The translations under genes were made by a program, and so were the position numbers. Source: a virus (Duplodnaviria; Caudoviricetes). From it: a stretch of 64,000 nt of DNA. The stretch lies in IMG/VR virus record IMGVR_UViG_3300037455_000221, positions 1 through 64,000 of that record. The stretch is one strand, 5' to 3'. This document shows, in pieces, positions 16,407-39,396 of the stretch. A model generated the notes under the pieces. It was not told where the DNA came from. It saw only the letters and a program-made list of their open reading frames with translations, and ran no database searches. The stretch's first letter is position 1. Each line of letters opens with the position of its first letter.

Positions 16407-16624
16407 TAACTTTAGGGGTCTAAAAGTGTACCTAACCTTATACACTATTATATTATATATATTCTATTAATATATATACTATACTGTACATGTATATATT
16501 ATATAATAGTAATAATATATATACTATGTATCTATATATATACTTATATATACTATACTAATAATATATATAATATAATCTTATAGTATATAAAGTTAGT
16601 ATCATTTTTTGCACCCTAACTTTA
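16407..16624. other. candidate replication origin
   Basis: Roughly 135-bp almost pure A/T core flanked by an imperfect 41-bp inverted repeat (30/41), at the coding-strand switch. Confidence 0.6.
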
Positions 16625-23553: not shown

Positions 23554-24636
23554 ATGGCGACAAACTTACAATACGCGCCTTTAGAGGACGCGGACAAGAA
23601 AATCGGCGTCGCTGATATGCGTAGAATATACAGCAAGTTTGCCGAAACATATAACAAGATGCTCGATTGTGACATTATGTACTGTCCAAAGTGTGATCAA
23701 TGGAAACGTAACACTGGGCAGCACACGGGGTTTTACAGAGATGAACGCTTTAGAGCGGGCTATTTTCCGCTGTGTAAAGAATGCGTTCAAATGATTGTTG
23801 AACAGAGAAAACGCGAGAATGACACACCTAATGAAACCAAAGAGAGTGTGATGAAGGTTCTTGAACTTATGGATAAACCTTATTATGACGAATTGTACTG
23901 TACTTGTATCAGAGGTGTAGAGGAACATAAGAATGATCCTGGCAGTAGAAAGAATTACCAGTCTCCTTTTGCAATCTATATCACACAGATACAGAGCCTT
24001 CCTCAACATAAGGGTAAGAAATGGAAAGATAGTAAATTCGGTAGTTATGAGCAACGTCCGGTTGAAGAGACGTTTGACGAGAGCTCTGATTTTTTTAAGA
24101 AGGCGAAAGAACACTTCGGTAATGAGTATTCGCTGCCTGATCTGAATTTCTTAGAGAAGGAATATTCAGATTGGTGTGAGCGTAATGAGTGTAATACTAA
24201 AGCTCAAGAAGAAGTATATAAGAATATAGCGTTCACTCAGCTTGAACTGCATAAGGCAAGACTTAATGGTGAGCCTACAGATAAGCTGACTGCTACTCTG
24301 CAGAAACTAATGGAGACCGGCAATATTACACCTAGGCAGACTAAGACGGATATTACTAATGGTATTGAATCATTTGGACAACTGATACAGAAGTTCGAAG
24401 AGACAAGACCAATACCGGATCCTGATCCCGATTTGGCTGACGTTGACAAAATCGGGAAATATATTAGTGTGTTCTTTCTTGGTCATCTTGCAAAGATGAT
24501 AGGTATCAAGAATAAATATTCAAAGATGTATGACGATTATATGAGGCAGTATTCTGCTAAACGTCGCGAGTTTAAAGGTGATGAGGATTCCGAAGATATA
24601 TTCGCGAAAGTATTTGGTGGCTTGACAGATGAGTGA
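23554..24636 (+). CDS. putative terminase small subunit / packaging-associated protein
   Basis: Zn-finger CxxC...CxxC N-terminus; overlaps the TerL start. Confidence 0.55.
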   Translation: MATNLQYAPLEDADKKIGVADMRRIYSKFAETYNKMLDCDIMYCPKCDQWKRNTGQHTGFYRDERFRAGYFPLCKECVQMIVEQRKRENDTPNETKESVMKVLELMDKPYYDELYCTCIRGVEEHKNDPGSRKNYQSPFAIYITQIQSLPQHKGKKWKDSKFGSYEQRPVEETFDESSDFFKKAKEHFGNEYSLPDLNFLEKEYSDWCERNECNTKAQEEVYKNIAFTQLELHKARLNGEPTDKLTATLQKLMETGNITPRQTKTDITNGIESFGQLIQKFEETRPIPDPDPDLADVDKIGKYISVFFLGHLAKMIGIKNKYSKMYDDYMRQYSAKRREFKGDEDSEDIFAKVFGGLTDE

Positions 24637-26398
24637 AAAGAAAACTCTTGCTCAAGTTCAGCAAGAAAAGAATGATCGCATAATGGATGGGGTCGGCATG
24701 TGGACGGCGTACTATCGTGCAAATCCTCAGCGCTTTGCTGCCGACTTTTTAAATATGCAATTAAAAGTATTCCAGAAGATATTACTTTACATCATGAACT
24801 TGATGACTGTAATGTCTTTTTTCGCATCAAGAGGTTTAGGTAAGACTTATATTGTTGCACTGTATTGTGTAATCAGATGTATTCTTTATCCTGGCACTAA
24901 AGTGTGCGTGGCTTCCGGAGTACGATCTCAGGCTACTGAGATAATTGGTAAGATAAATGACGACTTCCTAAAACTGCATGGTTGGGGAAGTGAAAACTTA
25001 CGTAATGAAATAAAAGAAATAAGCATGTCGATTAATAATCCACATGTTGACTTTAAAAATGGTTCGTTTATTAAATGTGTAACGGCAAGTGATAATGCTC
25101 TTGGAAACCGTGCTACTATCCTCATTGTTGATGAATGTAAGTTAGTGCCACGTGATATTATCCAAAGAGTGCTTAGACCCTTCCTTACATCATTAAGACA
25201 GCCGCCGTATCTTAATCTTCCTGAATATAAAAACAATCCTAAATATCAAGAAAGAAATACTGAGATATATATTACATCCGCTTACTATAAGAGTTCGTGG
25301 ACATATGACAAATGTAAGTCAGATGCGAGTATGATGCTTGATGATACTAAGAAATATTTTTGTTGTGGATTGCCATATCAGATTGGTATCAAGGATGGCA
25401 TATATTCAAAGGAAGCCGTTGAGGATGAGATGGCTGAATCCGATTTTAATCCTATTACGTTTATGATGGAACGTGAAGCACTCTTCTATGGTGAGGCTGA
25501 AAATGCATTCTTTGCATTTGATAGTCTTGTTGAACGTCGTGTGATTAAGAATGCGTTCTTGCCACTTCAGATGTATGAGAAGCGTGGTATTAATGTTCCT
25601 GATCTTGTAGATGGAGAACGTCGTATATTGTCGGTTGACGTGGCACTTATGTCGAGTAAGACGCATAATAACGACGCGTCAGCATTTGCAATTAATGTAG
25701 CTACACCTACTAACAACGGATATGCATCACACATTGTGTATATGCAAACATTTGAAGGTAAGACTACGGATGAGATTGGTATAACTATAATGAGATACTT
25801 TAATCATTATAAGTGTACGGATCTTGTACTAGACGCACAGTCATTTGGCACGAGCGTATATGACTTTATCTGTCAACAGCAGTTCGATGCTGAGACTGGT
25901 GAGACATATGATGCGATGTGTTCATGTAATGATCAGTTGATGGCTGAGCGTTGCAAGGATAAGAGTGCTATTAAATGTGTATGGTGTATTAAAGCTTATG
26001 AGCAATTCAACTCTGAAGCTGCGGCTATGCTGCGTGCCGGAATACAGACTGGCAATCTCTCACTGTTAATCAATGAATATGATGCTGAAGATGTGGTTAA
26101 AAAAATTTCGGGCTATGCGAATATGACACCACAAGAACAGGCGTCATTACTTATGCCATATGCTCAGACTACTGCACTTATAAATGAAATGGTTAATCTT
26201 GAAGGTGAAGTAGTTGGAAATAAGATCCGACTTAGAGAACATGCGGGTATGCGTAAGGATAGGTTTTCAAGTGTTGAATACAACTATTATGTAGCACAAC
26301 TTATTGGTCGTGAAGCAAGTCGTAAGAACGACGAGACAACCAAATCATTACTCGATCTTATTGGTGGTTCAATAAGAAAAAGTTCTATTATTAAATAA
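24629..26398 (+). CDS. terminase large subunit
   Basis: Walker A SRGLGKT, Walker B ILIVDE, motif III ITSA, nuclease SVDVA ... KDRFSS. Confidence 0.92.
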   Translation: MSEKKTLAQVQQEKNDRIMDGVGMWTAYYRANPQRFAADFLNMQLKVFQKILLYIMNLMTVMSFFASRGLGKTYIVALYCVIRCILYPGTKVCVASGVRSQATEIIGKINDDFLKLHGWGSENLRNEIKEISMSINNPHVDFKNGSFIKCVTASDNALGNRATILIVDECKLVPRDIIQRVLRPFLTSLRQPPYLNLPEYKNNPKYQERNTEIYITSAYYKSSWTYDKCKSDASMMLDDTKKYFCCGLPYQIGIKDGIYSKEAVEDEMAESDFNPITFMMEREALFYGEAENAFFAFDSLVERRVIKNAFLPLQMYEKRGINVPDLVDGERRILSVDVALMSSKTHNNDASAFAINVATPTNNGYASHIVYMQTFEGKTTDEIGITIMRYFNHYKCTDLVLDAQSFGTSVYDFICQQQFDAETGETYDAMCSCNDQLMAERCKDKSAIKCVWCIKAYEQFNSEAAAMLRAGIQTGNLSLLINEYDAEDVVKKISGYANMTPQEQASLLMPYAQTTALINEMVNLEGEVVGNKIRLREHAGMRKDRFSSVEYNYYVAQLIGREASRKNDETTKSLLDLIGGSIRKSSIIK

Positions 26399-27120: not shown

Positions 27121-28293
27121 ATGACGAGAAAAACGATTAATGAGATAAATGAAAGACTTAAAACACATAGTACATTACAAATATTATATCCAACATCTAA
27201 CGAAGATGTGATGTGTAGGTGTTCAAAGTGTAATCAACAATTTGAAAAGCATCGAAAAGATTTATGGAATAAAATAATAGGATGTCCGGTGTGTAGGAAT
27301 TTAAAAATTATAAAAGGATATAATGATGTTGCTACTACTGATCCATGGATGGTGAAATATTTTGTTGATAAAGAAGATGCTTATAAATACCCATCTCGAT
27401 CTCGTAAAAAGGTTAAAGTGAAATGCCCAGATTGTGGGTATGAAAGATCTATCGAACTTAATAATTTACACAAAAGAGGGTTTTCATGTCCTTGTAATAA
27501 TAAGGGTTATCATCGTGTTATTACCGGGATTAATGACGCGGCAACTCTTGTCCCGTGGATACTTGATTATTTAGTAGATAAAGATTTGGCATACACTCAT
27601 GCTCCTGGTTCATTGACTTCAACGGAGTTTCAATGTCCATACTGTCATACTATAGTAAAGCGATATATGCATGATGTGAGTAAACGCGGATTTATTTGTC
27701 CCATTTGTAGTGACGGAGTATCCTACCCTAATAAATTTGGCAGAGCTTTTATCAAACAAACTAAAGCTGAGAATGTTGAATTCGAGTATATACGAGATTG
27801 GACTGGCGGTAGATATTATGATATTTATTTCGAATATCAGGGTAAAAAATATTTTATAGAATTAGATGGGGAATTACACTTTAAATCATTATATGGAATG
27901 ACTTTAAAAGAGATTCAAGATAATGATAAATATAAAAATACAATAGCAAAACAACATGACATTATAATGATTCGAATTGATTGTCGTAAATCAGATAAAG
28001 ACTATATCAGGAAAAATATCGAGCAAAGTATTTTGAGAGATATATTTGATTTAACAACAATTGATTGGAATTTATGTGATGTGTTTTCTTGTTCCAGCTT
28101 AATGAGAACTGTATGTGACGATTATAATAAAGGTGAATTATTAATAAATGAAATTGCCGACAAATATCATCTTTCAACGCAAACAGTTAGTAGATATGTT
28201 AAGACTGGGATTAGTAACGGATTATGTATCTTTAATAAAGATAACAGAACTCGTGCTAGAAGAATATTGAATAAAAGGAATTGTTTTACTTAA
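27121..28293 (+). CDS. free-standing zinc-ribbon PD-(D/E)xK endonuclease (homing-endonuclease-like)
   Basis: Repeated CxxC ribbons (G.ND.AT..PW units), YDIYF...IELDGELH, C-terminal HTH; AT-rich relative to neighbours. Confidence 0.75.
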   Translation: MTRKTINEINERLKTHSTLQILYPTSNEDVMCRCSKCNQQFEKHRKDLWNKIIGCPVCRNLKIIKGYNDVATTDPWMVKYFVDKEDAYKYPSRSRKKVKVKCPDCGYERSIELNNLHKRGFSCPCNNKGYHRVITGINDAATLVPWILDYLVDKDLAYTHAPGSLTSTEFQCPYCHTIVKRYMHDVSKRGFICPICSDGVSYPNKFGRAFIKQTKAENVEFEYIRDWTGGRYYDIYFEYQGKKYFIELDGELHFKSLYGMTLKEIQDNDKYKNTIAKQHDIIMIRIDCRKSDKDYIRKNIEQSILRDIFDLTTIDWNLCDVFSCSSLMRTVCDDYNKGELLINEIADKYHLSTQTVSRYVKTGISNGLCIFNKDNRTRARRILNKRNCFT

Positions 28294-36174: not shown

Positions 36175-36276
36175 ATGGTGCAGTTTTATTATAAGCTGGT
36201 TAAAGCCGGCAAACTTACTATAGATCAGGTTCCTGAAAAGTACAGAGAACTAGTGAGAGAATTATTGGAAGTGTGA
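36175..36276 (+). CDS. CD1375/XkdX-like small protein (MVQFYYKLVKAGKLTIDQVPEKYRELVRELLEV)
   Basis: Y..LVKAG..TIDQVP...R..V pattern; GGAGG RBS. Confidence 0.65.
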   Translation: MVQFYYKLVKAGKLTIDQVPEKYRELVRELLEV

Positions 36277-36327
36277 TAATTCAATAATATTTACCCCTTT
36301 TATATTATTGATTTATTATATATACAA

Positions 36328-36372
36328 CCCTAGGACAAGCCATTATGGCTTGTCCTAGGGGCTTTTGTTTTT
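36328..36372 (+). terminator. strong palindromic terminator
   Basis: ccctaggacaagccat-t-atggcttgtcctaggg followed by T tracts. Confidence 0.75.
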
Positions 36373-36386
36373 TGAGGAGAATAACT

Positions 36387-36770
36387 ATGGCATATATATA
36401 CAAGAATCCAAATCCACAAAAGAAACGTGTGGGCGATTGTGTAATCCGAGGTGTTTCAATACTAACAAATCAATCATGGATTTATTCTTATATATGTATT
36501 GTCATACAAGGATTAAAGATGTTTGATATGCCCTCTTCTAATGATGTATGGGGATCATACCTTAAATCTCTTGGATATACGAAACATATAATACCAGATA
36601 GCTGTCCAGATTGTTATACGGTGCGGGAGTTCTGTTATGATCATCCGCATGGTAAATATTTGGTAGCTACTGGCAGTCATGTAGTTGCTGTGATTAATGG
36701 CGATTATTATGATACTTGGGATTCCGGCGACGAAGTCCCTGTTTACTATTTTGAGAAAATAGATATATAG
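36387..36770 (+). CDS. papain-like Cys peptidase-fold protein
   Basis: GDCVIR, SHVVAV, YYDTWDS form a Cys-His-Asp arrangement. Confidence 0.6.
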   Translation: MAYIYKNPNPQKKRVGDCVIRGVSILTNQSWIYSYICIVIQGLKMFDMPSSNDVWGSYLKSLGYTKHIIPDSCPDCYTVREFCYDHPHGKYLVATGSHVVAVINGDYYDTWDSGDEVPVYYFEKIDI

Positions 36771-36823
36771 CAGATAAATAAATCTGTTTATATAAATACT
36801 AAAAGACAAAGGAGGAATAAGTT

Positions 36824-37252
36824 ATGGCGTTTTATGATCCAACTTATCCCACAAACAATTACAGAAATTATCAGGCGGCGTATGCGCCACCACCGGCATT
36901 CAGCCCTCCACCATTGCAAACAGATTCTCCAATAATCTGGGTTCAAGGTGTAGCTGGGGCCAAAGCGTATCCTGTTCAGAATAATAAGATGGTTGTCTTA
37001 TTTGATTCTGAAGAAAAGCGTTTCTTTATTAAATCAACTGATGCAAGTGGAATACCACAACCACTTCGTGTATTTGAATATATAGAAAGTACTGAAGAAA
37101 AACAAAGTGCTCCCAGCATTGACACTACAATGTTTATCACAAGGGATGAATTTAATGAGGCAATTAATTCATTAAAGCAATCTCAACTTAAACAACAGAA
37201 TAATAATGCACAGAGAAAGGATGATAATAAACATGGCAAACCCTCTGTATAA
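36824..37252 (+). CDS. conserved hypothetical protein (cassette gene 2)
   Basis: Y/P/Q-rich N-terminus; WVQG..GAKAY, FDSE...F.IKS.DASG.P. Confidence 0.8.
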   Translation: MAFYDPTYPTNNYRNYQAAYAPPPAFSPPPLQTDSPIIWVQGVAGAKAYPVQNNKMVVLFDSEEKRFFIKSTDASGIPQPLRVFEYIESTEEKQSAPSIDTTMFITRDEFNEAINSLKQSQLKQQNNNAQRKDDNKHGKPSV

Positions 37253-37463
37253 TGAGAGCATGCAGAAAGGATTTCAATCCCAATTCGGGTCATTCATGTC
37301 TAACCCAATGGGATTCCTTATGCAACATAGAATTAACATACCTCAACAGTATGCTAATGACCCACGTGGCGCTGTCCAATATCTATTAAATAATGGTCAA
37401 ATGTCTCAAGATCAATTGAACTCAATTATGCAAAAGGCGCAACAAATGGGTTATAAATTCTGA
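37233..37463 (+). CDS. Q/N/M-rich small protein (cassette gene 3)
   Basis: NP...LLNNGQMSQDQLN; overlaps gene 2. Confidence 0.75.
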   Translation: MANPLYNESMQKGFQSQFGSFMSNPMGFLMQHRINIPQQYANDPRGAVQYLLNNGQMSQDQLNSIMQKAQQMGYKF

Positions 37464-37554
37464 TATCAAGTCACACGCTCGAGAGTGTGATTTAGATATA
37501 ACTGGCGACGTCGTCACTAACCAAAAATAATTATTGGAAAAGGAGACATGAATT

Positions 37555-38292
37555 ATGGCAATTACTGATTCTGAAAGTGGAATGGTTATGCCTGTAGCTC
37601 CCGCTTATGGCGGAGGTTACGGAAACGGTGGATTTGGAGATGGATGGTGGGTCATTCTCTTCTTATTCGCAATTATGGGCAACGGCTGGGGTAATGGCTT
37701 CGGCGGTAATGGGGGCGAGTTCCCTTGGCTCATGAGTGGTCAGCAAGGAATCAACGCTAATACCAATGGCGGGTTCCGTGATGCTATGATCAACGATAAT
37801 ATTACTTCTGTAAGAGATGGTATTGCTGGACTCTCAAATCAGATCTGTACTGCACAGATGGCTGATATGGAAAGAAGCTTTGCGTCTCAGACTGCAAACA
37901 CTGCCGGTATGACTGCAATTCAGGCGCAGATTTATCAGGGTTTCTCTAATCAGGGAGCCGCAACTGCTGATCTGAAGTATACAATCGCTACCGAAGCATG
38001 TGCAACGCGTTCTGCTAATGCCCAGAACACCCAGGCAATTCTCGACAAGTTGTGCCAGCTTGAACTGGATGGTTACAAGAGAGAGAATGATCAGCTTAGG
38101 ACTCAGCTTAATATGGCTACTCTTCGTGAATCACAGACTGAACAGAATGCACTGATTCAGCAAGGCTTTGCTAATGAAGTTGATCAGCTGTACAACAGAC
38201 TCTCCAACTGTCCTGTTCCTTCAACTCCCGTATACGGAAGAACTCCTATCTTTACATGTGGTAATGGATGTGGTTGTGGAGCCGTAGCATAA
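37555..38292 (+). CDS. Gly-rich membrane segment + coiled coil + Cys-rich tail (cassette gene 4)
   Basis: GGFGDGWWVILFLFAIMGNGWG; heptads; C-terminal CGNGCGCG. Confidence 0.8.
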   Translation: MAITDSESGMVMPVAPAYGGGYGNGGFGDGWWVILFLFAIMGNGWGNGFGGNGGEFPWLMSGQQGINANTNGGFRDAMINDNITSVRDGIAGLSNQICTAQMADMERSFASQTANTAGMTAIQAQIYQGFSNQGAATADLKYTIATEACATRSANAQNTQAILDKLCQLELDGYKRENDQLRTQLNMATLRESQTEQNALIQQGFANEVDQLYNRLSNCPVPSTPVYGRTPIFTCGNGCGCGAVA

Positions 38293-38304
38293 GGAGGTGA
38301 TACT

Positions 38305-38757
38305 ATGGCGGAATATCTTGCGAATAGTGTTGCTTCTGTGGCACTGAACAATCCTATATTGTTCACCGCTTCTATTCCTTGTCCCAATGGAAATGTTTAT
38401 CATGAAGATGAGACAGGAATTTTTATTCTCCGTGGTAACACAAATAACTGTTTTGCCAGATACCAGGTGACATATAATGGAAATATTAGTGTTCCTGAAG
38501 GTGGCACAGTTACTCCTATAGCTATTGCTATATCTGTTAATGGAGAAGCTCGACCTACAAGCATGGCAATATTTACACCTCAAGCTGTAGACGAGTTTGG
38601 TAATGTTACAAGTACTGCAATAATAACTGTACCTCGTGGATGTTGTTTTAGTTTATCAGTCAGATATGTCGACGCTACCGTTGATAATGCTGCTGTAACA
38701 CCTACTCCCACTATTGAAGTACAGAATTCAAATCTTGTAATCAACAGAATAGCATAA
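38305..38757 (+). CDS. BclA C-terminal/C1q-like beta-sandwich protein (cassette gene 5)
   Basis: All-beta pattern; Y.V.YNGNI, ISVNGE, NSNLVINRIA ending typical of BclA_C-like domains. Confidence 0.6.
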   Translation: MAEYLANSVASVALNNPILFTASIPCPNGNVYHEDETGIFILRGNTNNCFARYQVTYNGNISVPEGGTVTPIAIAISVNGEARPTSMAIFTPQAVDEFGNVTSTAIITVPRGCCFSLSVRYVDATVDNAAVTPTPTIEVQNSNLVINRIA

Positions 38758-38773
38758 AGAGGAGGACACCGCG

Positions 38774-39118
38774 ATGATGAGAGAATTGTATGACCTTTGC
38801 GATAAACTCAAAGGCGAGATAAAGAGTCTCAACTCTAAGAACGACATATCTCCTACTGAACTTGAACGTGCTTATAAAGCTGTAGATATTATCAAAGATA
38901 TCAAGACTATAGAAGCTATGGAGGATTACTCCGATGATGGTTATAGTGGACGTAGATATTACTACGATGATGATATGAAGTATGCTCGCGATAGAAGTTA
39001 TCGTAGAGAACGTGATTCAATGGGTCGCTATACAGATAATGGGTATAGCGGGCACGATGACAAAGAAGAGATGATGCGTAAGATCGATGAGATGAAACGC
39101 CAACTCGAAAATATGTAA
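38774..39118 (+). CDS. charged helical protein with RDSMGRY motif (cassette gene 6)
   Basis: GGAGG RBS; R/D/Y-rich. Confidence 0.75.
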   Translation: MMRELYDLCDKLKGEIKSLNSKNDISPTELERAYKAVDIIKDIKTIEAMEDYSDDGYSGRRYYYDDDMKYARDRSYRRERDSMGRYTDNGYSGHDDKEEMMRKIDEMKRQLENM

Positions 39119-39128
39119 TTCCATTAGT

Positions 39129-39160
39129 GAGAGGGTAGCCGCTGTGCTACCCTCTCTTGT
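39129..39160 (+). terminator. terminator-like hairpin closing the cassette
   Basis: gagagggtagc-cgctgt-gctaccctctc. Confidence 0.6.
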
Positions 39161-39198
39161 ATATATAATTAATTAATTTTATAAAAGGGAGAAAAGTT

Positions 39199-39396
39199 AT
39201 GGTTGTAAATAGAAAATTTAACACAGACTATGCATCCAACTGGGAGTTTTATGGTGAGAGTTCCGAAACAAAACCAACCATGGCTAATGGTTATGAAGAA
39301 GGAATTCCTGATAAGAGTCTTTTCATGGAACTTGATACTGGTGAAGGTTATTACTATAACAAAGACACCGACAGTTGGGCAAAGATCGGAGGATGA
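39199..39396 (+). CDS. small virion-associated hypothetical protein
   Basis: G.S..TKPT...F.ELDTG..Y.Y....W motif seen in phage structural modules. Confidence 0.65.
   Translation: MVVNRKFNTDYASNWEFYGESSETKPTMANGYEEGIPDKSLFMELDTGEGYYYNKDTDSWAKIGG

What the first reader, a model, noticed from the sequence alone, without database searches (positions are those of the whole stretch)
36387..39160. Hairpin-bounded six-gene cassette: candidate undescribed surface-fibre or spore-coat-like system
Seen: between hairpins at 36328 and 39129 lie a Cys-His-Asp peptidase-like gene, two Q/N/P-rich small proteins, a protein with a Gly-flanked hydrophobic segment, long coiled coil and CGNGCGCG tail, a Cys-containing BclA/C1q-like beta protein, and an RDSMGRY-motif helical protein; an internal hairpin at about 37466-37497 precedes gene 4. 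From recollection, similar clusters recur as hypotheticals in Clostridia and their phages (unverified). Inference: a membrane-anchored trimeric stalk with a disulfide-linked C1q-like head, matured by the peptidase, that modifies the host cell or spore surface or excludes other phages. It is a self-contained moron unrelated to core morphogenesis.
Basis: partly seen in the sequence, partly recalled or inferred. Interest (0 to 1): 0.8.

Follow-up and report, generated by a model that had tools for sequence, protein, structure and literature searches.

The report
Portable six-gene phage rod-and-knob cassette
The six genes are one copy of a very common, strictly ordered and movable gene set of gut and rumen phages that no one has characterised; it encodes a small cysteine protease-like enzyme, a cysteine-rich rod with a greasy glycine-flanked head, a knob folded like spore-surface proteins and three low-complexity partners, and its job is still unknown.

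Summary
Three hairpins and six tightly packed + strand genes lie at the stated places. All six genes recur in the same order in 80 of 86 related loci that have room for them.

- g1 is a minimal papain-fold Cys-His-Asp enzyme.
- g5 is a stand-alone BclA/ExsFA/C1q-type jelly roll (Z 17.3 to F-BclA).
- g4 has a conserved leader, a short Gly/Trp-flanked hydrophobic core, a helical body and a Cys-rich tail.
- g2, g3 and g6 are low-complexity partners.

None of the six matches Pfam, NCBIfam or PADLOC. The cassette sits at different places in different phages:
- after the endolysin in 52 loci;
- inside a head module;
- after an integrase;
- here, between a DGR/fibre block and the portal, 48 kb from the only endolysin-type (Amidase_2) match found among the four cell-wall hydrolase families searched.

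It also occurs in a phage seen only in lytic growth on a host not known to sporulate (my knowledge). So a spore-surface role or plain lysogenic conversion is unlikely.

My best guess (about 0.3) is a late-made rod-and-knob assembly built by exosporium-like peptide docking. The function is not shown.

This scan has flagged and followed up the same cassette on other DNA about ten times, with the same outcome.

The parts
36317..36327 (.). TATATATACAA, left copy of an 11-bp motif. Its reverse complement follows the right hairpin.
   Evidence: the exact 11-mer occurs three times in 64 kb, all at the cassette borders (36317, 36393, 39157). With one mismatch there are 12 matches against 3.6 expected. 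Its meaning is unknown; it may be a -10-like element.
36328..36360 (+). Left boundary hairpin, terminator-like, 25 nt before g1
   Evidence: 15-bp stem, 9 GC pairs, -29.6 kcal/mol, z -7.4, T-run after it. It is absent at this place in the closest relative, L002.
36387..36770 (+). g1: 127-aa minimal papain-fold Cys-His-Asp enzyme (phrog_3754), with a CPDC...C..H cluster
   Evidence: PHROG, 2e-25. (invariant D17, C18, R21, H98, D109; C73, P74, C76 near-invariant). (pLDDT 94.9). (nearly all of the top 50 chains are papain-like cysteine peptidases or related papain/CHAP-fold enzymes; PCAT1 C39 domain and prostaphopain both Z 7.0). (no profile-level link to C39).
36824..37252 (+). g2: 142 aa, with a Pro/Tyr/Gln-rich N-terminus, a conserved ~50-residue probable small beta domain (my reading, not folded) and a C-terminal helix (phrog_21718)
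   Evidence: invariant W39, V40, G42, A46, D61, S62, K70, D73, G76, P78, Y86; no known family; look-alikes are viral hypotheticals only.
37233..37463 (+). g3: 76 aa, Gln/Asn/Met-rich, overlaps the end of g2 (phrog_22984)
   Evidence: consensus with NP...NIPQ...NDP...LLNsGq.SQ; two of four members give sub-threshold STI1/HOP DP-domain hits (E 0.009, 0.098). This is a lead only.
37463..37499 (+). Internal hairpin in the 91-nt g3-g4 spacer
   Evidence: z -3.2 for the spacer. A spacer with a hairpin before g4 is common in the related loci (no control for chance).
37555..38292 (+). g4: 245 aa. Conserved leader (MAITD...MVMPVAP.YGG), Gly/Trp-flanked 11-residue hydrophobic core, helical Gln/Asn-rich body, CPVP...FTCGNGCGCG tail (phrog_16490). 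This copy lacks the family's CCC motif.
   Evidence: Homologue in the crAss-like phage cr116_1.
38305..38757 (+). g5: 150-aa stand-alone BclA-CTD/ExsFA/C1q-TNF jelly roll with four conserved Cys (phrog_20016)
   Evidence: 70-89% identity across loci; C26, C49, C113, C114 invariant. (pLDDT 94.5). (Z 17.3 with 9h38, 15.6 with 1wck, 13.8 with 7r1m). (667 clusters at 50% identity). (no true fused forms).
38774..39118 (+). g6: 114 aa, helix, then an Arg/Tyr/Asp/Ser/Gly-rich middle with RDSMGRY, then a helix (phrog_28802)
39129..39156 (+). Right boundary hairpin
   Evidence: L002 has a hairpin of different sequence at the same place. A stable stem within 0-6 nt of the g6 stop is frequent in related loci.
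39157..39167 (.). TTGTATATATA, right copy of the 11-bp motif

Best explanation
Shown:
- This is one copy of a portable, strictly ordered six-gene phage operon.
- It pairs a stand-alone BclA/ExsFA-fold protein (g5) with a Cys-rich protein (g4) that carries a conserved proline-containing N-terminal leader and a short Gly/aromatic-flanked hydrophobic segment.
- It also holds a minimal papain-fold Cys-His-Asp enzyme (g1) and three low-complexity proteins (g2, g3, g6).

Inferred:
- The products are made in the infected cell's cytoplasm on the late strand and assemble there into a rod-and-knob complex.
- g5 forms a trimer, as TNF/C1q-fold proteins generally do, and docks a peptide of g4. The leader is the more likely partner, by analogy with the way the ExsF trimer docks the 'exosporium leader' of BclA and F-Anchor.
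- g1 trims or couples that leader near its Gly-Gly.
- g3 (Met/Gln-rich, STI1-like) and the other low-complexity proteins keep the greasy head soluble or serve as adaptors.
- The exposed hydrophobic head then inserts into, or sticks to, a membrane or another protein surface at the end of infection.

Whether the finished object ends up on the cell envelope, on debris or on the virion is not known. Nor is its benefit known; adhesion or aggregation, blocking re-adsorption or superinfection, and helping release are all open.
For: Fixed unit:
- All six genes are in order in 80 of 86 loci with room for them.
- Synteny shows by tblastn in 77 of 81 loci and in metagenome bins.

Portable. The cassette lies:
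- after an endolysin in 52 loci;
- between the minor and major capsid genes in Dulem virus 35;
- after an integrase in Dulem virus 39;
- before the portal here and in L002;
- 48 kb from this genome's only Amidase_2 match.

Folds:
- g5 matches F-BclA CTD at Z 17.3 (rmsd 1.8 over 125 residues), BclA at 15.6 and ExsFA at 13.8.
- g1 matches clan-CA peptidases and has an invariant Cys/His/Asp.

Docking analogy:
- ExsF binds a Pro-rich N-terminal leader in the clefts of its trimer (PMC12357932).
- The g4 leaders are short, conserved and Pro-containing. One type reads TMLVGPT, close to my recollection of the BclA leader. Another reads LSAADIAAVTG, close to my recollection of a double-glycine leader.

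Cytoplasmic assembly:
- I see no N-terminal hydrophobic signal-type segment in five of the six products (not run through a predictor).

Late direction:
- The cassette is on the same strand as the fibre/DGR block and the portal, with tight gene spacing.
Against:
- Which end of g4 meets g5 is unknown.
- Label-on-tree counts and conditional mutual information gave no sign that g1 or g5 track the g4 leader type or tail type better than the other genes do.
- The g1 family also occurs without g4 and g5 in Bacillus Tsamsa-like phages, Geobacillus phage GBK2 and Lak megaphages. Its substrate therefore need not be g4.
- g1 shows no profile-level link to C39.
- The leader resemblances are short motifs in subsets of the family and could be chance.
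- The STI1 hit of g3 is below threshold.
- The timing of expression was not measured.
Confidence: 0.3

Rival explanations
1. Optional virion fibre or decoration. The g4 rod with the g5 knob is mounted on the particle, at the head or tail, and helps binding to host cells, mucus or plant fibre. g1, g2, g3 and g6 serve as assembly helpers.
For: - TNF/C1q-type knobs are common tips of phage receptor-binding proteins: cyanophage A-1(L) fibre, TM4 gp23, PRD1 P5, Sf6 knob, phi812 spike.
- The lack of signal-type segments is normal for virion proteins.
- Here and in L002 the cassette lies between a fibre/DGR block and the portal.
- In Dulem virus 35 it lies inside the head module.
Against: - The cassette moves between unrelated siphovirus-size (about 40 kb) and 130-kb genomes and needs no fixed structural neighbour. 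A common docking site on such different particles is hard to picture.
- In most loci it follows the lysis genes and a terminator, next to integrase or early genes.
- g5 is never fused to a fibre shaft.
- g5 is far more conserved (70-89%) than one expects of a receptor-binding tip.
Confidence: 0.22
2. Membrane-acting lysis or exclusion device. g4 sits in the cytoplasmic membrane as a single-pass protein, like a class III holin or an i-spanin, with g5 and the others as regulators. It either tunes or completes lysis or blocks DNA entry by other phages.
For: - An endolysin lies about 0.9 kb upstream in 52 loci, with a one-TMD holin-like gene between.
- The crAss-like phage cr116_1 has its g4 homologue about 1.2 kb downstream of its holin and cell-wall hydrolase genes, with two other genes in between.
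- The Gly/Trp-flanked hydrophobic segment is the best conserved feature between Clostridia-phage g4 and crAss g4.
Against: - In this genome the cassette is 48 kb from the only Amidase_2 match, and in other phages it lies in head or early regions.
- The hydrophobic core has only 8-13 residues and no flanking positive charges.
- A terminator separates the cassette from the lysis genes in Ceridwen.
- No lipoprotein partner is present.
- No PADLOC match.
Confidence: 0.2
3. Lysogenic-conversion moron that remodels the cell or spore surface.
For: - The position between the lysis genes and an integrase in some loci is the classic moron site.
- Hairpins bound the cassette.
- The g5 fold is that of exosporium proteins.
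Against: - The cassette is present in a phage seen only in lytic growth on B. fibrisolvens, a host not known to sporulate (my knowledge), and in this 130-kb phage, in which I saw no integrase in the window.
- There is no room for a promoter between the left hairpin and g1.
- I see no export signals on g5.
- It is rare in cellular genomes: 7 of 399.
Confidence: 0.08
4. Counter-defence or host-takeover set in which g1 is the active part, for example a Josephin-like clipper of a host ubiquitin-like or other tag. The rest would have unrelated roles.
For: - g1 resembles Josephin and bacterial 'clippase' DUBs as closely as it resembles C39 (Z 6.5-6.8).
- The g1 family stands alone among small, unannotated genes in Bacillus and Geobacillus phages and occurs in Lak phages.
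Against: This does not explain the strict six-gene order, or the very high conservation of g5 and its pairing with g4.
Confidence: 0.1

Closest known systems
BclA C-terminal domain, F-BclA CTD and ExsFA/BxpB of the Bacillus cereus-group exosporium and F-ENA appendages (PDB 1wck, 9h38, 7r1m, 8d02, 9h3d)
   Same: - g5 has the same jelly-roll fold (Z 17.3, 15.6, 13.8).
- Like ExsFA it is a stand-alone protein of about 150 residues, made without an evident signal peptide.
- ExsF docks a short Pro-rich N-terminal leader of a fibre protein, and g4 has such a leader.
- The exosporium also uses Cys-rich partners (ExsY/CotY; my knowledge).
   Different: - No Pfam BclA_C match and 13-17% identity.
- No collagen repeats anywhere in the cassette.
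- It is phage-borne, including in a phage of a host not known to sporulate (and my knowledge).
- Docking and trimer formation were not tested.
Papain-like (clan CA) cysteine peptidases: C39 double-glycine peptidase domains (PCAT1, ComA, LahT), Josephin, staphopain
   Same: - Fold match (Z 6.5-7.0).
- Cys on an N-terminal helix, then His, then Asp, all invariant.
- Size is close to an isolated C39 domain.
   Different: - No Pfam hit.
- hhalign against six C39 domains gives probability 0.8%.
- Not fused to an ABC transporter.
- It carries an extra CPDC...C..H cluster.
Single-pass phage lysis proteins with a large extracytoplasmic helical part (T4 holin T, lambda i-spanin Rz). An analogy from my own knowledge.
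   Same: - An N-proximal hydrophobic segment followed by a long helical region with conserved Cys.
- Frequent position beside the holin and endolysin genes.
   Different: - No sequence or profile similarity was found.
- The hydrophobic core is too short for a normal TM helix.
- There is no outer-membrane partner.
- The hosts of most carriers appear to be Gram-positive Clostridia, judging from the labels of the metagenome bins.

Membership tests
BclA_C / C1q-TNF superfamily | Ten-strand jelly-roll fold of the C1q/TNF type | tested here: met
   AF2 pLDDT 94.5. VIA Z 17.3 with 9h38, 15.6 with 1wck, 14.0-14.1 with C1q domains. Foldseek E 2e-7.
BclA_C / C1q-TNF superfamily | Sequence-profile membership (Pfam BclA_C or C1q) | tested here: not met
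   No Pfam family at E <= 0.1. Profile against PDB sequences: best E 0.21.
BclA_C / C1q-TNF superfamily | Homotrimer | not tested
BclA-type collagen-like fibre protein | Collagen GXY repeats before the head domain | tested here: not met
   g5 is 150 aa and the fold starts at residue 2. 667 clusters are mostly 130-160 aa, and shorter rows look like fragments. The only two longer proteins look like chimeric assemblies.
ExsFA/BxpB anchor | Stand-alone TNF-like protein that binds an exosporium leader peptide | tested here: inconclusive
   The stand-alone TNF-like part is met (Z 13.8 with 7r1m). Peptide binding was not testable. g4 leader motifs only resemble the leader.
ExsFA/BxpB anchor | Part of the sporulation programme of a spore former | tested here: not met
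   The gene is phage-borne. Ceridwen infects B. fibrisolvens, not known to sporulate (my knowledge). 7 of 399 genomes sampled from the class of one carrier bin have it.
Peptidase C39 | Papain-like fold with a Cys-His-Asp triad | tested here: met
Peptidase C39 | Profile-level homology to C39 domains | tested here: not met
   No PF03412 hit. hhalign of A1 against A8 gives probability 0.8%.
Peptidase C39 | N-terminal domain of an ABC exporter, with a double-glycine leader substrate | tested here: not met
   g1 is a free 127-aa protein. No longer homologues were found, which is weak evidence. There is no ABC transporter in the cassette. Leader type C of g4 only resembles a GG leader.
Moron (lysogenic-conversion cassette) | Own promoter and terminator, expressed from the prophage | tested here: inconclusive
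   A terminator-like hairpin lies on each side. Only 25 nt separate the left hairpin from g1, and the sole promoter-like site (36290-36319) lies before it. Expression was not measured.
Holin / i-spanin | A true transmembrane helix, and for spanins an outer-membrane lipoprotein partner | tested here: inconclusive
   The hydrophobic core is 8-13 residues, Gly/Trp-flanked, with no nearby K/R. No lipoprotein gene is in the cassette. No TM predictor was available.

The most novel reading that the evidence does not exclude
The cassette encodes a phage-borne self-assembly system of the exosporium type. A knob trimer captures, and is perhaps covalently coupled by the papain-fold enzyme to, the leader of a Cys-rich rod. 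This would build a structure on virions, membranes or lysis debris: a previously unknown class of phage accessory structure shared by thousands of gut and rumen phages.
Probability: 0.25. Interest if true: 0.8.

Novelty: categorically new. Interest (0 to 1): 0.55.

Why it matters
The g5 family alone spans 667 clusters at 50% identity and more than 8,000 clusters at 90% identity. The set is kept in a fixed order across unrelated gut and rumen phages, yet none of the six families matched any Pfam, NCBIfam or PADLOC family or a PHROG of known function, and I found no paper on it. A module this common and this conserved must contribute to phage fitness in the gut. It has a cultured, tractable carrier: Butyrivibrio phage Ceridwen on B. 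fibrisolvens DSM 3071. It would also be a phage-borne, non-spore use of the BclA/ExsFA fold as a stand-alone protein, and it might shed light on the still unidentified enzyme that processes and attaches BclA (my knowledge). The 'new' rating means that no described system shares this gene set. It does not mean that a new mechanism has been shown.

Tried and rejected
- Pfam, NCBIfam and PADLOC scans of all six proteins: nothing.
- Member-by-member Pfam scans of the g4 and g2 alignments and of ten g3/g6 members: only sub-threshold noise, apart from a weak STI1 lead for g3.
- Sequence or profile searches of g1, g2, g4 and g5 against PDB sequences: nothing usable.
- ESM Atlas for g4 and g2: only viral hypotheticals.
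- Search for longer or fused forms of g1: none. For g5: two apparent chimeras.
- hhalign of g1 against C39 domains: negative.
- Tests of whether g1 or g5 co-vary with the leader or tail type of g4 (label changes on gene trees, conditional mutual information): no gene stood out.
- Crude heptad test of g4: weak.
- HMM scan of the crAss-like locus: only g4 was detected there.
- The small HTH gene that precedes the cassette in about 39 of the 81 loci scanned has no counterpart in this window.
One related-loci run failed because the alignment was too diverse. Relatives cannot be drawn for a virus record.
- Rejected: g1 start at 36345 (inside the hairpin); spore-coat function; g5 as the fused tip of a long fibre.
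Full report
**What is there**

The window is the first 64 kb of a 129,646-bp virus record rated complete.

Genes near the finding, all on the + strand:
- terminase large subunit, at 24629-26395;
- HNH endonuclease;
- fibre-like proteins;
- a DGR target and reverse transcriptase;
- two small genes, the second a CD1375-family protein;
- the six genes of the finding;
- a 65-aa ORF;
- portal (phrog_2739, 1e-70);
- head genes.

Hairpins:

| Position | Stem | Energy (kcal/mol) | z-score |
|---|---|---|---|
| 36328-36360 | 15 bp | -29.6 | -7.4 |
| 39129-39156 | 11 bp | -21.2 | -5.8 |
| about 37463-37499 | 14 pairs, one bulge | -22.6 (whole 96-nt spacer) | -3.2 |

Gene starts and spacing:
- g1 starts at 36387, behind GAGGAG. 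The earlier ATG at 36345 lies inside the hairpin.
- g3 most likely starts at 37233, as its homologues do.
- g4 starts at 37555, behind AAGGAGA.
- g4, g5 and g6 are 12 and 16 nt apart.

**The six proteins**

No protein matches Pfam, NCBIfam or PADLOC. Each matches one PHROG of unknown function (g1 two): 3754, 21718, 22984, 16490, 20016 and 28802.

*g1*
- In 49 homologues D17, C18, R21, W31, H98 and D109 are invariant, and C73, P74 and C76 nearly so.
- AF2 gives pLDDT 94.9.
- Nearly all of the best 50 chains in an all-against-all structure search are papain-like cysteine peptidases or related papain/CHAP-fold enzymes (Foldseek agrees weakly):
  - PCAT1 C39 domain, Z 7.0;
  - prostaphopain, Z 7.0;
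  - Josephin-2, Z 6.8;
  - LahT and AvrPphB, Z 6.6.
- A profile-profile comparison with six C39 domains taken from metagenome bins is negative, at probability 0.8%.
- I therefore call g1 a minimal papain-fold Cys-His-Asp enzyme. I do not call it a C39 member.
- Protease, transamidase and deconjugase activities are all compatible with the fold.

*g5*
- It is 70-89% identical across loci, far above the other genes at 30-70%.
- AF2 gives pLDDT 94.5.
- Fold matches:

| Match | Z | Detail |
|---|---|---|
| F-BclA C-terminal domain | 17.3 | rmsd 1.8 over 125 residues |
| BclA | 15.6 | |
| ExsFA | 13.8 | |
| Many C1q/TNF domains and phage fibre tips | lower | |

- The family has 667 clusters at 50% identity. 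Most members are 130-160 residues, and shorter rows look like fragments.
- The only two longer proteins break in the middle of the domain and look like chimeric assemblies.

*g4*
- Family features: a conserved leader, a Gly-rich stretch, a hydrophobic core of only 8-13 residues flanked by Trp and Gly, a second Gly/aromatic stretch, a Gln/Asn-rich helical body with conserved Cys, and a Pro- and Cys-rich tail.
- This window's copy lacks the near-invariant CCC motif.
- Heptad periodicity is only weakly above shuffles.

*g2, g3 and g6*
- g2 has a Pro/Tyr/Gln-rich start and a conserved domain of about 50 residues.
- g3 is Gln/Asn/Met-rich, with two sub-threshold STI1/HOP DP hits.
- g6 has two helices around an Arg/Tyr/Ser/Gly-rich middle that carries the RDSMGRY consensus.

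**Recurrence**
- tblastn finds g4 and g5 side by side in Butyrivibrio phage Ceridwen and in uncultured gut phages.
- IMG/VR gave 242 relatives of g5. Of the 80 loci kept, plus Ceridwen, 77 of 81 show g1, g4 and g5 in order.
- With HMMs built from these loci, 80 of 86 loci that have room carry all six genes in the same order. This holds for metagenome bins and for Dulem virus 35 as well.

**Where the cassette sits**
- In 52 loci an endolysin (Glucosaminidase plus PG_binding_1) lies about 0.9 kb upstream.
  - A one-TMD holin-like gene lies between the endolysin and the cassette.
  - About 39 of the 81 loci scanned also have a small sigma-region-4-like HTH gene directly before g1.
  - An integrase or an SNF2 helicase lies downstream.
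- In Dulem virus 35 the cassette lies between the minor and major capsid genes.
- In Dulem virus 39 it lies after an integrase.
- Here and in the related 122-kb contig L002 it lies before the portal.
- Of four cell-wall hydrolase families searched in this genome, only Amidase_2 matched, at 86.8 kb.
- This genome holds one copy of the cassette.
- The HTH gene has no counterpart in the window.

So the set is a portable unit with no obligatory neighbour.

**Range**
- Ceridwen was seen only in the lytic cycle on B. fibrisolvens, a host not known to sporulate (my knowledge).
- A clear g4 homologue, with the same hydrophobic head, CCC motif and Cys-rich tail, lies about 1.2 kb downstream of the holin and cell-wall hydrolase genes of the crAss-like phage cr116_1. 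Neither g1 nor g5 is detectable there.
- The g1 family alone occurs among small hypothetical genes in Bacillus Tsamsa-like phages and in Geobacillus phage GBK2. It also occurs in Prevotella Lak megaphages.
- Among 399 genomes sampled from the class of one carrier bin (labelled Lachnospiraceae), 7 have g5. It is therefore a phage trait, not part of a cellular programme.

**Reading**

I see no N-terminal hydrophobic signal-type segment in five of the six products. The hydrophobic core of g4 is too short for a normal membrane helix and has no charged flanks. Assembly in the cytoplasm, as for virions and for exosporium proteins, fits better than export to the cell surface.

The nearest worked-out mechanism is the exosporium. 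There the ExsF trimer docks the Pro-rich N-terminal leader of BclA and F-Anchor in its inter-subunit clefts.

The g4 leaders come in three types:
- MVMPVAP;
- TMLVGPT, close to my recollection of the BclA leader;
- LSAADIAAVTG, close to my recollection of a double-glycine leader.

These leader types are reassorted with the two tail types.

I tested whether g1 or g5 track the leader or tail type better than the other genes do. They do not, so the contact partners remain unknown.

I commit, at about 0.3, to a late-made rod-and-knob assembly:
- built by leader docking on a g5 trimer;
- with g1 as the processing or coupling enzyme;
- with the low-complexity proteins as helpers.

**Boundaries**
- Stable stems upstream of g1 and within a few bases of the g6 stop are frequent in related loci (no control for chance).
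- L002 has a hairpin of different sequence at the right border and none at the left.
- The exact 11-mer TTGTATATATA occurs three times in the window, all at the cassette borders. L002 keeps a TATATATA box after its right hairpin, so the motif may be a promoter-like element rather than an insertion scar.

**Earlier notes of this scan**

The same cassette has been flagged and followed up on other genomes about ten times. The conclusions were the same: widespread, portable, BclA/ExsFA-like knob, function unknown. I reached my reading before seeing these notes. Their claims of late expression and of transcription in rumen samples were not tested here.

Noticed in passing
window 36317-36327, 36393-36403, 39157-39167: The exact 11-mer TATATATACAA/TTGTATATATA occurs only three times in 64 kb. 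All three are at the cassette borders: two direct copies around the left hairpin and one inverted copy after the right hairpin.
   Followed up: partly
window 16471-16555 (- strand): Three copies of TAGTATATATA lie within 85 nt, at the point where the coding strand and GC skew switch. This may be a promoter cluster of the divergent early/late region.
   Followed up: no
window 36175-36273: The 33-aa ORF just before the left hairpin is a CD1375-family protein (NCBIfam NF040910, 5e-15).
   Followed up: no
window 39199-39393: A 65-aa ORF between the right hairpin and the portal is conserved (58%) at the same place in L002. Its function is unknown.
   Followed up: no
L113 (crAss-like phage cr116_1) 4566-5891: A g4 homologue annotated 'spike protein/glycoprotein' lies about 1.2 kb after the holin and L,D-carboxypeptidase genes. 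It is followed by a 136-aa Cys-containing beta-rich protein that the g5 HMM does not detect; this may be an analogue.
   Followed up: partly
L001 9852-10073, and cluster 4/5 ORFs of about 39 loci: A small sigma-70 region-4-like HTH gene lies 0-290 nt before g1 in about half of the related loci. It may be a dedicated regulator. It is absent from this window.
   Followed up: partly
window 37555-38292: This copy of g4, and that of L082, lacks about 40 residues of the family, including the near-invariant CCC motif. That motif is therefore not essential everywhere.
   Followed up: partly
proteins P0189, P0226, P0242: Representatives in which the start of g1 or g2 is joined directly to the end of g5. 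These are deletion derivatives of the cassette or assembly chimeras.
   Followed up: no
window 27121-28290: An HNH/homing endonuclease gene lies about 0.7 kb downstream of the terminase large subunit, after a 168-aa ORF.
   Followed up: no
G000 86774-87187 (- strand, outside the window): The only Amidase_2 match of the genome lies in a 525-aa ORF on the opposite strand, 48 kb from the cassette.
   Followed up: no
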